From positions 53,370 through 83,753 of the forward strand of contig JBBAUX010000006.1 in the NCBI GenBank assembly GCA_040398005.1: a stretch of DNA of 30,384 nt, in the 5' to 3' direction. Position numbers: made by a program. The stretch's first letter is position 1. The number at the start of each line of letters is the position of its first letter. Source of the stretch: Opitutales bacterium. Its GTDB lineage: Bacteria > Verrucomicrobiota > Verrucomicrobiia > Opitutales > UBA953. Positions 24,001 through 30,000 of the stretch are shown in pieces.

Positions 24001-27000
24001 ACGCCGCAGATTGCCGATATTGGAAAACTCTGTGCCGCACATTTAGTACGTCATAGCACGGCCAATACTTGGGCAGAGTTGAGAAAACTTTTAGAGATTC
24101 GTGGACGCGGAGTGCGCGTCATCGAATTCTGGACGGATCGCAAAAAGAATGCCGAGTATCGGCTTAAGTCTTTCGGCACTAAAAAATAATTTTACTTAGC
24201 CCAACCCCAGCGTGGACCGAAGGGATGCAGAATGACTACGGGTCGACCGACGACGTCTTTTCCTGGCACCTCACCCCAACCGCGTGAGTCAAAACTATTC
24301 GCGGAGTTGTCTCCGAGAGCGTAGTAATGTCCGGCCGTCACTTGGTATTCACCGGTCAGCGGAATAGAGTAACCGAAATTTCCGATATCGGCCAAATACC
24401 CGTAATAATTACGTGAAATGGCTCTTTGAGAATTCAGCGCCATCGGCTCAGGGCTAGTGACCTCACTACCGTTCACGAATAATTTTCCATCACTACCGAC
24501 GCGAAGTTTATCACCGGGGGTGCCCACGAGTCGTTTGACGTAATAATTTTGGGAAGGTACGCCTTGAACCGCTAGGCCGGGAATATGATTGGTGCGGAAG
24601 ACAAAAGTATCACCCCGCGACGGGTTAACGAAATTATACGATACGCGATCGACGAAAAGCATATCACCAGTAAGAATATCAAAGTTTAATATAATTTCTC
24701 CGGCCTGCACGGTCATCGCAGTTTTTAACATCGGACCGTTGTTAGTCTCTTCGATTAAGTTATTCAGTTGAGCCTGTGCGATTACTTTTTCCCAGCGCTC
24801 GTTATCCTGACGACGCAACGGCATAGCGGCGTAGTTCGGGTAAAAGGTGCGCAGTAAAACACCGTCTAAATTAAAATCCTGAGGTACGGAAATAGCTTGG
24901 GCGCGATTACCGATGTAAATTTCTTGGTGGTCAGCACCCGTGGCACGATGACGTAGGCGATAGCGTCTCACAGTACCATCGTAGCCAAGGAACTCTAAGG
25001 GTATTTTAACGATGCCTGAGTCTTCTGCCTGAATTACATAGTTTGAAGACCAGTCGGTAATTTTACCGATGATCTTCTCTTTTAAAGTCGGGACAGCATC
25101 GGAGGGTGCACGTACCACGGAAGTCATACCGTTATAGGTCGGCCACATCGAGTTCGTAGGAATCTTGAAGGGCTGAAGAAAGAAACTACGGATACCGCCG
25201 GCGACGATGGCAGCCATCACCAGCATCTCAACCCAATCACCGAGCATGGTTACTGGGAAAATCTTTCCGCCGTATTCAATGAGTACTTCCTTTAACGCGG
25301 TGGTGTCGTGTTCAAGTTTTTCAGCGTTAAACTCTTTCGCTTTAAAGGTCACTTTAAGTTCAGTCTCAAGACGCTTGATATTTTCAACTACGTCGGCCGG
25401 TAAAACATCCTGACGATAAAGCACGACTTTCTCTGCACCTTCCAACACCGCCTTAGCTTCTTTGCGGAGCGCTTGTTTTTCGGTGAAGACAGGGAACATG
25501 ACGAAAAGTTAAGACTAAAATCTTAAAGTGAAAAGAATAGAAATTAACCTTCGTTCTTAAGAATCTTAATAAAAGCCTCTTGAGGAATATCGACCTTACC
25601 AATTTGTTTCATCCGTTTCTTACCCTCTTTTTGTTTTTCGAGTAATTTACGCTTACGGGTAATATCACCGCCGTAACACTTAGCGGTCACGTCTTTACCG
25701 ACCGATCCAATAGTTTCGCGGGCGATAACCTTGGAACCGATAGCGGCTTGGATAGCTACTTTGAACAATTGGCGAGGGAGGAGTTCTTTAAGTTTTTCGC
25801 AGAGGGCACGACCACGACCTTCGGCCTTGCTGGCGTGGACGATGGACGAAAAAGCGTCAACCGGCTCTTCGTTCACGCGAATGTCCATTTTCACGAGGTC
25901 GGATGTCACATACTCGCCCAACTCGTAGTCCATGGAACCATAACCGCGGGTGATGGATTTGAGACGATCGTTAAAGTCGACCAAGATTTCGTTAAGCGGC
26001 AATAAGCAGACCAAGACCACGCGTTCGCCGTCGATGGTTTCGGTTTTTTCGCAGATACCACGCTTCTCTTGGACGAGCGCGAGCATGTCGCCAATCGAGG
26101 TACCAGGAATATGGATGTGAGCGCGGATGGTTGGCTCTTCGATGTGTTCGATGGCCGACGGATCGGGCATAACCACTGGATTATCCATGATGTGTTCAAC
26201 CCCATCGGTCGTGAAAACTTTATAAACAACCGATGGGTACGTGGAGAGAATGTCTAAATCGTATTCGCGACGCAGGCGCTCTTGCACGATTTCCATGTGG
26301 AGTAGTCCGAGGAATCCGCAGCGGAAACCAAAACCCAAAGCTGTTGAACTCTCAGCCGTGTAAGTGAGCGAAGCATCGTTAATCGCTAATTTTGATAATG
26401 AAGTTTTTAGTTTTTCGTAATCGGCTGTGTCTAAAGGATAAATACCGCTGAAGACCATGGGACGTACTTCTTTGAATCCCGGAACAGGTTCTTTAGCGGG
26501 ATCGTTAGCGAGCGTGATGGTGTCCCCTACTTTCGCATCAGCGACTTCACGAATATTAATCACAATATAGCCTACGGAACCGGGACCCAGTTCATCTTGC
26601 GGCTTCATTTTAGGGGAGAACACGCCAACTTCTTTAATCACCGAGCGAACACCATTGGACATCAGCTCAATCGTTTGGCCGGCTTTGAAAGTTCCAGAGA
26701 ATACGCGAACGTAACTGATAACACCTTTGTAAGAATCGAATAGTGAATCGAAAACTAAAGCGCGGTGTTGGGGATATTCTGACCAGCGTGGGGGTGGAAC
26801 GCGTTTAATAATCGCAGCAAAAATCTCGTCGATACCGATGCCCGATTTTCCTGAAGCGAGAACGGCATCCTGTGCGGGGATGGTTAAAATATCTTCGACC
26901 TGACGACGTGCTTCCTCGGGGCGAGCACTAGGCAGATCGACTTTATTAATAATCGGAACGATTTCCAGACCTTGGCTCATGGCGAGAGTCGCATTGGCGA

Positions 27001-30000
27001 CCGTTTGCGCTTCGACGCCTTGTGAGGCATCAATCAAAAGCAAAGCACCTTCACACGCAGCCAGAGAACGAGAGACTTCATAAGCGAAGTCAACGTGTCC
27101 GGGAGTATCGATTAAATTTAAAATATATTTTTTACCATCGGGTGCGGTAAAATTCATCGTCACCGGGTGGCACTTAATGGTGATACCCTTTTCGCGTTCT
27201 AAATCCATCCCGTCGAGCAACTGCTCTTTCATTTGGCGCTTCTCAATCGTCTTCGTATGTTCGAGCAAGCGGTCGGACAGCGTCGTCTTACCGTGGTCGA
27301 CGTGAGCGATAATGCAGAAATTTCTTATATGATCTAAAGACACAGGTGAGAGCGGAAAGGTTTAATAGGATGCGAGTGCGGGGCCTTGTCCAGCATTAGC
27401 CCCAAAGAACAGCAAATTAGGCAGGAATCTCAGCAAACTCGTGAATCGATGTAATCGGAGCGGTGGGAGCGGTGCGCTTCATCATACCTGCGAGAACGCC
27501 ACCAGGGCCACACTCGTAAAATTGGGTGATACCCGACTCAGCAGCGGCCCTACAATCATCTTCCCATAAGACCGAGGACACCACCTGTTTAACCAAGGCA
27601 GCACGTAAGTCATCGGGGTTTTTCAATACTCCACCCGTGGTGTTTGAATAAACTGTAACGCCAGGAGTTTTGAATTCAATCGTCGCTAAGAACTTTTCGA
27701 ATTCTTTGCGAGCGGGTTCCATGAGGCGACTGTGATACGCACCAGCAACGACGAGAGGTTTAACTAATTTGAAAGGTCCAAATTCTTTGGCACGAGCTAC
27801 CGCTACAGTTACTTTTTCGATATCACCCGATACAACTACTTGGCCAGGGCAATTAAAGTTCGCGGCATCGATATCAAATGCAGCACAAAGTTTGGCGATG
27901 TCTTCACGAGATCCACCGATGACGGCGGCCATGCCGCCTTTCGTTTGATCGCAAGCGAGTTGCATGAGACGTCCACGCTCGGCGACAATTTTCAGACCTG
28001 TTTCAAAATCCCAAATACCAGCGACGGCGTAGGCGGTGAGTTCGCCTAAAGAAAGTCCGAGACAAGCCGTGAGATTATTGAGTTTACCACGTTCACGTAA
28101 AATTTGGGCAATCGCATAACCCTGAACGTAGAGTGCTGGCTGGCAGACGCGTGTTTCGGTGAGGACTTCGGCGGGGCCTTCGAAGCAGACCTTTTGGAGG
28201 TCGAACGGCAGCACTTTATTGGCACGATTATAGAGGTCGCGGGCGGTGTTTGAGCCTTCGAAAAGGGACTTACCCATTCCGACGACCTGAGCACCTTGGC
28301 CTGAGAATAATAACGCGGTGGACATATTAAAATAAGGAGGGGAAATGCCTGCAAGGGTCAAGGGTAAGAGCAAAACCGCCTTTCCTTGACCCCCGAGTGC
28401 CAAAACCCTACCTCATAGTGCTTACTTTTATGCCTTTAGCCCTTCTTTCTGTAAGCGATAAAACTGGCCTACTTCCCTTCGCCCAGGCGCTCGTTGCGAA
28501 GCATGGTTATCAACTTCTCTCGACCGGCGGAACAGCGAAAATTTTACGTGAAGCGGGTCTACCCGTAAAAGACGTCAGCGAACACACCGGCTCTCCAGAA
28601 ATCATGGAAGGTCGCGTGAAAACTTTGCATCCGAAAGTTCACGGTGGATTACTTTGTCGTCGCGACTCCCAAGAGCATCTCGATGAGGCCAAGAAACACG
28701 GTATCGATTTAATCGATTTAATCGTAGTAAATTTATATCCCTTTGAAAGCACGGTCGCGAAAGCGAATTGTACATTTGAAGATGCAATTGAAAACATCGA
28801 TATCGGCGGACCTTCCATGCTGCGCAGTGCGGCTAAAAATCATTCCGCCGTTACCGTAGTGACTGATCCGAGTGATTACGAAAAAGTTTTAGCGGCTTTC
28901 GAAAATCCTTCGACGCTCGGTGATCTCCGTCGTCAACTCGCTCTCAAGGTATTTCAACGCACCTCGGCGTATGATGCGGCGATTGCTAATTATTTAGAAT
29001 CTCAAGCTCAACCAGGTCTCGGTAACATCTTAGGTTTACCCGCCATTTACAGCACTACCCTGCCGATTGCCCAGCGTCTGCGTTATGGTGAAAATCCCCA
29101 TCAACAAGCGGCACTCTACGGATCCTTCCACGAAGTCTTTGAACAACTGCAAGGCAAGGAACTCAGCTATAACAATATTTTAGATATCACAGCGGCTACT
29201 TATCTCATTGGTGAGTTTGAACGTCCGACCTTAGCGATCCTTAAACATACTAATCCGTGCGGTGTGGCCTCAGCTGAAACCTTAGTCGAAGCTTGGCATA
29301 AAGCGTTTGAGACCGACCGTCAGGCTCCATTTGGCGGAATCATTGTCGCTAATCGCACCGTCGATAAAGAATTAGCGGAAGCGATTTCGGAAAGTTTCTC
29401 GGAAGTCATTATCGCACCTGAATTTAATGAAGATGCTTTGGCTATTTTTGGTAAGAAGAAGAATCTTCGACTGATGAAAGCTAAAGTCGGACTGCGTGCG
29501 GACAGCTTACGCGAGGTGCGTGCGGTGATTGGCGGAGTACTCGTTCAAGACCGCGATCAAAAGCCAATCAACTCAAGAGACTTTAAAGTGGTTAGCAAAC
29601 GTCAGCCCACTGCGGATGAAATGACCGCCATGATGTTTGGATGGCGCGTGGTACGACACATCAAATCCAATGCGATTGTATACACTGGTAAGGAACGCAC
29701 GCTCGGCGTGGGTGCAGGTCAGATGTCACGCATAGACTCATCGCGCATTGCCGTCTGGAAGGCCCAAGAGGCCAAACTCTCATTACAAGGTTCAGCGGTG
29801 TGCTCGGATGCCTTCTTCCCCTTCCCTGACGGTTTAATCGCGGCAGCGGAGGCGGGATCCACTTGTGCGATTCAGCCAGGAGGTTCGGTGAAAGATGCTG
29901 AAGTCATTGCTGCTGCGGATGCGCACGGCATGGCGATGGTCTTCACGGGGATGCGACACTTCCGACACTAAGAAATGTCGAAATAAAAAAGCCCACGAAC

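What a model noticed while it worked through the whole genome (the two positions that open the first line are those of the whole stretch)
24192..27343. RNase III lost in the family UBA953
No RNase III gene is found in this genome; lepA-lepB, which rnc follows in many bacteria, is followed here by an unrelated gene on the other strand. In near-complete genomes of the four genera of its family RNase III turns up in 2 of 24 (one on a short, probably foreign contig), against 35 of 38 genomes of other Opitutales families, the exceptions being 0.9-1.0-Mb genomes. Boldest reading: this free-living family processes its rRNA precursor and clears double-stranded RNA without RNase III, and the genus UBA953 does so without Rho as well. 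New would be a recent RNase III loss with RNase III-bearing neighbours for comparison.
Evidence so far: pfam.tsv has no Ribonuclease_3, Ribonucleas_3_3 or dsrm row. PF14622: 0 here; 1 of 10 genus, 0 of 10, 1 of 1, 0 of 3 in sister genera, all >=95% complete. PF00636 in the order: 0 of 3 in this family (own included), 35 of 38 elsewhere. The genus exception has rnc at C75:395-748 next to era at C75:1057-1878 on a 3.4-kb contig. RNase Y g00364, RNase E/G g00366, YbeY g01075, RNase R g00029, PNPase g00274 present. g00918 lepB C6:77561-78868(-), g00919 lepA 78913-80712(-), next gene g00917 menD on the other strand.
(Added by a program. Inside this text positions count along the whole contig: contig position 53,370 is position 1 of the stretch shown here. 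"Call 12" and the like, gene names such as g00115 and contig names such as C1 are that model's own, and its searches are not shown. The text may have been shortened before it was handed on; [...] marks where a part breaks off. The agent that wrote the report below was given it as the finding of a first reader that could run no searches.)

Follow-up and report, generated by a model that had tools for sequence, protein, structure and literature searches.

The report
RNase III lost in three freshwater genera
This small-genome lake bacterium and its closest relatives have lost the normally near-universal RNA-cutting enzyme RNase III, and some have also lost the terminator Rho, yet they keep the double-stranded rRNA stems that RNase III usually cuts; two sister genera still have the enzyme for comparison.

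Summary
The absence is real, but it does not cover the whole family, and the window is not where the gene was lost. lepA, lepB and a convergent menD-like gene lie as described. No RNase III domain or dsRNA-binding domain is found in the 1.44-Mb, 94%-complete genome, whether with Pfam models, a profile built from sister-genus RNase III, or tblastn. In all 137 genomes held for the family, RNase III appears in 1 of 96 (own genus), 0 of 19 and 0 of 11, but in 1 of 1 and 9 of 10 in two other genera. The one hit in the own genus lies on a contaminating Limnohabitans contig. Rho is missing from the own genus and its sister genus only. The trees allow one loss or two. Long leader-trailer helices around 16S and 23S rRNA are kept, with compensatory changes. 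Lake metatranscriptome contigs hint at an RNA 5' end inside the 16S helix. Deinococcus is the published precedent, so this is a new member of a known kind.

The parts
25544..27343 (-). lepA (elongation factor 4), 599 aa
   Evidence: GTP_EFTU, LepA_C, EFG_C and other domains. It is 94-96% identical within the genus.
24192..25499 (-). lepB (signal peptidase I), 435 aa with a long N-terminal extension
   Evidence: Peptidase_S26 at residues 275-423, E 8.5e-34.
24190..24191 (.). 2-base gap between the convergent stops of lepB and the menD-like gene; there is no room here for an rnc remnant
   Evidence: ORF coordinates. tblastn with RNase III proteins finds nothing in this region.
22471..24189 (+). 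menD-like thiamine-pyrophosphate enzyme, 572 aa, convergent with lepB
   Evidence: TPP_enzyme_N, TPP_enzyme_M_2 and TPP_enzyme_C.

Best explanation
rnc has been truly lost in three of the five genera of this freshwater Opitutales family: the window's genus g1, its sister g5, and g2. This happened in one or two events. The g1+g5 ancestor also lost rho. The whole order already lacked era, and the family lacks RNase J.

The loss came before the extra genome shrinkage seen in this 1.44-Mb genome, because 2.2-2.7-Mb members of the genus lack the genes too. The window (lepA-lepB facing a menD-like gene) is an ordinary locus and not the site of the loss.

Inferred mechanism, not shown: the long leader-trailer helices flanking 16S and 23S rRNA are kept because ribosome assembly needs them independently of RNase III. 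The precursor is opened and trimmed by the RNases that remain: RNase E/G, RNase Y, YbeY, a beta-CASP RNase, and 3' exonucleases.
For: - Absence in the genome.
- Census of all 137 held family genomes: g1 1 of 96 (own genome included), g2 0 of 19, g5 0 of 11, g3 1 of 1, g4 9 of 10.
- The single g1 hit is a lepB-rnc-era-recO contig. Its GC is 0.49-0.52 against 0.60-0.64 at that genome's native lepA locus. That genome has its own lepA elsewhere. The contig's Era is 99% identical to a Limnohabitans record, and the family otherwise has no Era.
- The g3 and g4 proteins keep the (E/Q)RLEFLGD and ED..EA..GA motifs and a dsRBD.
- Rho: g1 0 of 20 (own included), g5 0 of 11, g2 19 of 19, g3 1 of 1, g4 9 of 10. 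tblastn with g4 Rho proteins against this genome has a best E of 0.44. In the order, 145 of 151 genomes have a match.
- Helices: the 16S helix has a core of 47 pairs, including a 20-bp uninterrupted stretch. The 23S helix has 63 inter-strand pairs, including about 28 bp with one bulge. The 16S helix runs 28-47 pairs in 6 g1 genomes, 31 in g5 and 32 in g2, with compensatory differences between genera.
- Remaining RNases.
- Published basis (passages read): E. coli needs at least 17 bp of the 16S helix with or without rnc, and Deinococcus lacks RNase III (PMC11404451, PMC8708148).
Against: - All genomes are metagenome bins; none is closed.
- No experiment or raw-read end mapping shows which enzyme opens the helices.
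- In four metatranscriptome runs, RNA contigs start inside a paired stretch of the 16S helix. Single-strand-specific RNases explain this less easily than a double-strand-cutting activity would.
- The number of losses is unresolved. The maximum-likelihood tree puts g2 outside (g3,g4)+(g1,g5) with support 83/73, which implies two losses. The AU test does not reject a single RNase III-less clade (p 0.233).
Confidence: 0.72

Rival explanations
1. An unrecognised enzyme has replaced RNase III, either a very divergent RNase III or a non-homologous endonuclease that cuts double-stranded RNA. It still cleaves inside the leader-trailer helices.
For: In 4 of 4 lake metatranscriptome runs laid, zero-mismatch RNA contigs begin at -202 or -200 of the 16S gene, which is inside the 20-bp helix segment. 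Three of them carry about 20-22 unaligned letters at that end. There is no cover in the 43 bases before that point (read with the helix map). One contig ends with adapter sequence at +113, in the internal loop 5 nt beyond the pairing partner of -202. A boxB-like hairpin with covariation and a boxA-like motif lie upstream of -202, so -202 is unlikely to be the transcription start.
Against: - The data are contigs and not reads. The tool rates coincident contig ends as only a weak hint.
- No dsRBD is found in four RNase III-less genomes.
- No candidate gene shows the complementary pattern. The beta-CASP RNase is present in 60 of 61 family genomes, genera with rnc included.
- The cut site (GA|GUU, next to a 2x2 loop and G-U pairs) could be reached by RNase E/G when the helix breathes. 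This last point is inference.
Confidence: 0.13
2. rnc is present but systematically missing from the bins, because it was not assembled or not binned.
For: This genome is 93.9% complete, and every genome in the census is a bin.
Against: - 125 of 126 genomes in g1, g2 and g5 have no hit, and the remaining hit is foreign. The less complete g4 bins (64-94%) show rnc in 9 of 10.
- Several RNase III-less bins have 8-20 contigs at 97-99% completeness.
- In g3 and g4, rnc lies in ordinary chromosomal contexts.
- This genome's rRNA operon, usually the hardest part to assemble, sits inside a 323-kb contig.
Confidence: 0.03
3. A whole-family loss, with the rnc genes of g3 and g4 being contaminants or later re-acquisitions.
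For: The ten g4 bins are 64-94% complete and all have 80 or more contigs.
Against: - The nine g4 RNase III proteins form one group with one another (E 1e-50 to 1e-75), far from the Limnohabitans-type protein (E 4e-25).
- In g3 the gene lies on a 421-kb contig behind exbB-exbD-exbD, a block that is syntenic with this genome.
- I made no tree of rnc against outgroups, so an old re-acquisition is not formally excluded.
Confidence: 0.03

Closest known systems
Deinococcus radiodurans and relatives, the published case of bacteria that naturally lack RNase III (PMC8708148, PMC11404451; passages read)
   Same: No RNase III domain in a free-living bacterial lineage, and the leader-trailer helices are kept. 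In the tool's controls, Thermus and Deinococcus are the only two bacteria that stay silent for PF14622 and PF00636.
   Different: - The Deinococcus helices are described as bulge-laden, and that was offered as a reason for the loss. Here the helices have 20-bp and roughly 28-bp near-perfect segments.
- Deinococcus rings for Rho, Era and RNase J in the controls. This clade lacks all three.
- Here the loss is shallow, within one family, with RNase III-bearing sister genera.
E. coli rnc deletion mutants (recalled; PMC11404451 and PMC8708148 passages on non-essentiality and helix dependence)
   Same: The cells live without RNase III. 16S matures through other RNases, and the helix is still needed.
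   Different: That is a laboratory mutant in a background with Rho, Era and a full RNase set. This is a natural state fixed across about 125 species-level genomes.
Reduced-genome Opitutales families of the same order (f4 and f8, 0.8-1.0 Mb)
   Same: RNase III is not found: 0 of 7 and 0 of 6.
   Different: They keep Rho, 7 of 7 and 6 of 6, and their genomes are far smaller. In the present family, members of 2.2-2.7 Mb also lack rnc.
Archaeal pre-rRNA processing (helices cut at bulge-helix-bulge motifs by a splicing endonuclease; recalled, and PMC8708148 passage)
   Same: Leader-trailer helices without RNase III.
   Different: I did not search for an archaeal-type endonuclease or for bulge-helix-bulge motifs here. 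The only internal loop near the observed RNA ends is a 2x2 mismatch.

Membership tests
Class 1 bacterial RNase III (rnc) | RNase III catalytic domain (PF14622/PF00636) with the ERLEFLGD-type signature | tested here: not met
   0 matches at E<=10 in this genome. A sister-genus profile has a best E of 0.38 and tblastn 0.23. g1, g2 and g5 give 1 of 126, and that hit is foreign.
Class 1 bacterial RNase III (rnc) | C-terminal double-stranded RNA-binding domain (dsrm) | tested here: not met
   No dsrm over the cut-off in G000, G001, G002 or G005. It is found only in G003, which has rnc.
lepA-lepB-rnc-era-recO gene order (proteobacterial type) | rnc directly downstream of lepB | tested here: not met
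   A convergent menD-like gene follows lepB after 2 bases. In 14 Opitutales genomes with rnc, rnc is never beside lepA-lepB. The only such array in the family is the Limnohabitans contaminant contig.
Naturally RNase III-less bacteria (Deinococcus type) | No RNase III gene across a clade of free-living bacteria with near-complete genomes | tested here: met
   137 genomes; completeness values. Zero-mismatch RNA contigs of this organism's rRNA leader occur in four lake-water metatranscriptome runs.
Naturally RNase III-less bacteria (Deinococcus type) | Leader-trailer helices of pre-rRNA retained | tested here: met
Naturally RNase III-less bacteria (Deinococcus type) | Helices interrupted by many bulges, proposed in PMC11404451 as a reason RNase III became useless | tested here: not met
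   The 16S helix is 9 bp, a 2x2 loop, then 20 bp uninterrupted. The 23S helix has about 28 bp with one bulge.
Rho-less bacteria | No Rho RNA-binding domain gene | tested here: met
   g1 0 of 20 and g5 0 of 11. tblastn with family Rho proteins has a best E of 0.44. In the order, 145 of 151 genomes have a match.

The most novel reading that the evidence does not exclude
In the g1+g5 clade, which has no RNase III, Rho, Era or RNase J, an unidentified activity still cuts inside the perfectly paired part of the 16S leader-trailer helix, just 3' of boxA. The resulting roughly 200-nt leader stays attached to a large share of the 16S rRNA in the cell. This would be a bacterial pre-rRNA pathway unlike either the E. 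coli or the B. subtilis scheme.
Probability: 0.15. Interest if true: 0.8.

Novelty: new member of a known kind. Interest (0 to 1): 0.55.

Why it matters
RNase III is treated as nearly universal in bacteria. One review names Deinococcus radiodurans as the only exception so far (PMC8708148), and even the tiny CPR genomes keep rnc (PMC12641178, passage read).

This case offers a shallow, well-sampled loss: about 125 species-level genomes without the gene, beside two sister genera with it, all from similar freshwater settings. The substrate helices are intact, and one sub-clade has also lost Rho, which is present in 145 of 151 genomes sampled in the order.

That is a natural comparison for three questions:
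- What leader-trailer helices are for when nothing canonical cuts them.
- How antisense and double-stranded RNA is handled without both Rho and RNase III.
- Which RNases take over.

Public lake metatranscriptomes already contain this organism's pre-rRNA, so end mapping can be done without a culture.

Tried and rejected
- Loss site by synteny. In g3, rnc follows exbB-exbD-exbD and a 115-aa ORF. Two g4 genomes have two other contexts: rnc followed by a HIT gene, and rnc between orthologues of C1:161860 and C1:169437. In this genome exbD2 faces thrC, and an epimerase gene precedes the HIT-ybeY-queC genes. In g2 another gene follows exbD2. There is no rnc remnant at any of these places, so the loss site and the number of events could not be reconstructed.
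- RNase J as a substitute: 0 of 61 genomes over the cut-off.
- The beta-CASP RNase as a clade-specific substitute: it is present in 60 of 61 genomes, so there is no complementary pattern.
- A sigma-70-type promoter just before the RNA 5' end: none was found. The only plus-strand match lies about 275 bases upstream.
- Parts of the rRNA operon with no contig cover are not used as evidence.
- The contig that starts at -79 of the 23S gene comes from a single run and has no adapter at that end. I did not count it.
-, the order-wide Rho search at E<=1e-20, used a threshold that was too strict through my own slip. It is uninformative and was repeated.
- One search failed on a wrong coordinate and was re-sent without those two references.
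- Earlier findings of the scan: nothing on this genome and nothing that bears on this question.
- Literature. Searches for 'lack RNase III' + 'bacteria'; for 'RNase III' + 'phylogenetic distribution' + 'ribonucleases' + 'absent'; for 'UBA953'; and for 'RNase III' + 'Rho' + 'absent' + 'genome streamlining' returned no paper whose listed title or abstract start concerns RNase III or Rho loss in Verrucomicrobiota. In the one UBA953 paper I opened (PMC11039613, term search), 'RNase' and 'ribonuclease' occur 0 times.
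Full report
**The locus.** The window is G000:C6:53370-83753. At the given coordinates lie lepA (25544-27343, minus strand) and lepB (24192-25499, minus strand). A thiamine-pyrophosphate enzyme of the menD type (22471-24189, plus strand) ends two bases from the lepB stop. 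The rest of the window holds ordinary genes: a GH2 glycosidase, a NERD/UvrD-like helicase, an AddAB-like nuclease-helicase pair, a sialate-esterase-like gene, alaS, NAD kinase, an ABC-F protein, DUF3500, fabD and purH. There is no Rfam match.

**Absence in this genome.** The genome has 1,443,074 bases in 14 contigs and is 93.9% complete.
- PF14622 and PF00636 give no match at E<=10.
- I built a profile from 10 RNase III proteins, nine from genus g4 of the same family plus the one on the G030 contig that turned out to be foreign. Run with all filters off against 15,883 six-frame ORFs of at least 40 aa, its best E was 0.38. tblastn with the same proteins had a best E of 0.23.
- No dsRNA-binding domain is found in this genome or in three other RNase III-less genomes. 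It is found in G003, which has rnc.
The two silent ones are Thermus thermophilus and Deinococcus radiodurans. Deinococcus and its relatives are described in print as naturally lacking RNase III (PMC8708148 section 3.1 and PMC11404451 discussion; passages read). The control is therefore not a sign of poor sensitivity.

**Distribution.** A search of all 137 genomes held for the family (a 61-genome sample) gave:

| Genus | Genomes with RNase III |
|---|---|
| g1 (own genus, own genome included) | 1 of 96 |
| g2 | 0 of 19 |
| g5 | 0 of 11 |
| g3 | 1 of 1 |
| g4 | 9 of 10 |

- The g4 genomes are 64-94% complete, so a 95% completeness filter hides them.
- The g3 and g4 proteins keep the catalytic signatures and a dsRBD. 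In g4 the first glutamate of the signature is a glutamine, and some g4 proteins carry a low-complexity insert before it.
- In the order, 119 of 144 genomes outside the family have the domain. The families with none are mainly those with 0.8-1.0-Mb genomes, f4 (0 of 7) and f8 (0 of 6).

**The exception in g1 is foreign.** G030:C75 carries the end of lepB followed by rnc, era and recO.
- Its GC is 0.49-0.52, against 0.60-0.64 at G030's own lepA locus.
- G030 has its own lepA on another contig, 95% identical to the window's.
- The Era on C75 has no counterpart in G030, G000, G014, G003 or G004; only GTPase-domain hits to other proteins appear.
- That Era is 99% identical to a Limnohabitans record and 95-98% identical to many Comamonadaceae bins.

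**The window is not the loss site.** In 14 Opitutales genomes where I located both genes (G003, four g4 genomes and nine from other families), rnc is never beside lepA-lepB. Where the two share a contig (7 genomes) they are 47 kb or more apart. In the other 7 they lie on different contigs.

In g3, rnc follows exbB-exbD-exbD and a 115-aa ORF. The same exb block in this genome (C2:123741-125576) ends facing thrC. Two g4 genomes show two further contexts. No remnant of rnc was found at any counterpart site in g1, g5 or g2.

**Phylogeny.** I made a tree from lepA plus alaS: 30 genomes, 1,494 columns, LG+G4. G036 has no alaS and G020 has no lepA in it.
- It resolves three groups in the family: g2, (g3,g4) and (g1,g5).
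- The best tree joins (g3,g4) with (g1,g5) at support 83/73. That implies two losses of rnc.
- Holding g1, g5 and g2 together costs 4.8 log-likelihood units, with AU p = 0.233, so a single loss is not rejected.
- This genome groups with G022. Its beta-CASP RNase is 97-99% identical to those of three other 1.3-1.5-Mb genomes. The 2.2-2.7-Mb members of g1 also lack rnc, so the loss came before the further shrinkage.

**Rho, Era and RNase J.**
- Rho's RNA-binding domain: g1 0 of 20 (own genome included), g5 0 of 11, g2 19 of 19, g3 1 of 1, g4 9 of 10. tblastn with four g4 Rho proteins against this genome has a best E of 0.44.
- In the order, 145 of 151 genomes match, including all 13 genomes of the tiny-genome families that lack RNase III. 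The double absence is therefore particular to g1+g5.
- Era (TIGR00436) is over the cut-off in 0 of 5 family genomes. In a sample of the phylum it is over the cut-off in 44 of 121, with none among the Opitutales families sampled: f10, f14, f23, f33 and f34 give 0 of 21, plus the own genome. This is an older and wider absence.
- RNase J is over the cut-off in 0 of 61 genomes.
- Present in this genome: RNase E/G (C2:77942-78754), RNase Y (C2:74474-75796), YbeY (C8:34143-34448) and a 452-aa beta-CASP RNase (C5:31421-32776).

**The substrate is still there.** The rRNA operon is assembled on C1, with 16S at 24093-25621 and 23S at 26141-28948.
- Around 16S, leader positions -217 to -163 pair with trailer positions +71 to +123. 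The arrangement is 9 bp, a 2x2 loop, 20 uninterrupted bp, then further pairs, 47 in all.
- Around 23S there are 63 inter-strand pairs, including about 28 bp with one bulge. The flank duplex energies have z-scores of -4.2 (16S) and -7.4 (23S) against shuffles.
- Using the same measure, the 16S core is 28-47 pairs in six g1 genomes, 31 in g5, 32 in g2, 38-39 in two g4 genomes and 41-51 in four outgroups.
- The paired segments differ between g1, g5 and g2 by changes on both strands. I did not run a formal covariation test.
- Upstream of the helix lie a hairpin whose stem co-varies among g1 and g5 and a boxA-like motif (GGTTCTTTGAGA) that is conserved out to the outgroups.
- This fits the published finding that such helices occur in all phyla and that E. 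coli needs at least 17 bp of the 16S helix with or without RNase III (PMC11404451, passages read).

**A hint from RNA.** Part of the 16S leader is held by lake-water metatranscriptome runs. I laid four of them, all kept as contigs, on the operon.
- In all four, zero-mismatch contigs begin at locus L077 position 1299 (three runs) or 1301 (one run). That is -202 or -200 of the 16S gene, inside the 20-bp paired segment.
- Three of those contigs carry 20-22 letters at that end that do not lie on the genome. These may be adapter; the letters were not shown.
- The 600 bases before this point have no cover in three runs. In the fourth there is one contig at depth 7 with 8 mismatches, against contig depths of 788-3,942 after it.
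- These leader-bearing contigs have mean depths of 0.6-1.0 times those of the zero-mismatch contigs from the 16S body.
- One contig ends with adapter sequence at +113, in the 2x2 loop.
- The tool warns that contigs cannot show RNA ends or levels and that coincident ends are only a weak hint. rRNA depletion could also distort the ratios.
- I read this as a possible processing site just 3' of boxA. It is not a transcription start, because the co-varying hairpin and boxA lie upstream of it. The enzyme remains open.

**Verdict.** The family-wide reading and the locus argument do not hold. The closest known case is Deinococcus. This case differs in three ways: the loss is recent and phylogenetically bracketed, the helices are near-perfect, and in g1+g5 Rho is absent as well. 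My searches of the held literature listed no paper on RNase III or Rho loss in Verrucomicrobiota (titles and abstract starts), and the one UBA953 paper I opened has no occurrence of either RNase term.

Noticed in passing
whole genome G000 and relatives (not in the window): Era GTPase (TIGR00436) is not found over the cut-off in 5 of 5 family genomes, nor in any sampled Opitutales genome. It is found in 44 of 121 genomes of the phylum. The Era review PMC10582724 (passages read) names Chlamydia, Dependentiae and CPR as the groups that lost Era, and the term 'Verrucomicrobi' occurs 0 times in it.
   Followed up: partly
L077:1299 (G000:C1:23891), 202 bases before the 16S gene: In four lake metatranscriptome runs, zero-mismatch RNA contigs all start here, inside the paired leader-trailer helix, at depths close to those of the 16S body.
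   Followed up: partly
L077:1261-1301 (G000:C1:23853-23893): A hairpin whose stem co-varies among g1 and g5 genomes is followed by a boxA-like motif. The order resembles the boxB-boxA antitermination elements of E. coli rrn leaders (that resemblance is recalled).
   Followed up: no
G030:C75 (L001, L106): A short contig in a same-genus bin is a Limnohabitans (Comamonadaceae) contaminant carrying lepB-rnc-era-recO.
   Followed up: yes
L070-L074 (alaS of the five g2 genomes searched): In g2 the alaS match is split at residues 410/418 of the query by about 318 extra in-frame bases. The open frames are 1,032-1,111 aa, against 896 aa here.
   Followed up: no
G000:C5:31421-32776 (L186:419-1777, minus strand): A 452-aa beta-CASP metallo-beta-lactamase RNase (Lactamase_B, Beta-Casp, RMMBL) is conserved in 60 of 61 family genomes.
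   Followed up: partly
order-wide: Most Opitutales genomes, including g2, show two separate genes with a Rho RNA-binding domain, one in a frame of about 600-800 aa and one of about 380-500 aa.
   Followed up: no
window 4863-13445: A NERD-domain UvrD-like helicase gene lies next to an AddB/AddA-like PD-(D/E)XK nuclease and UvrD helicase pair.
   Followed up: no
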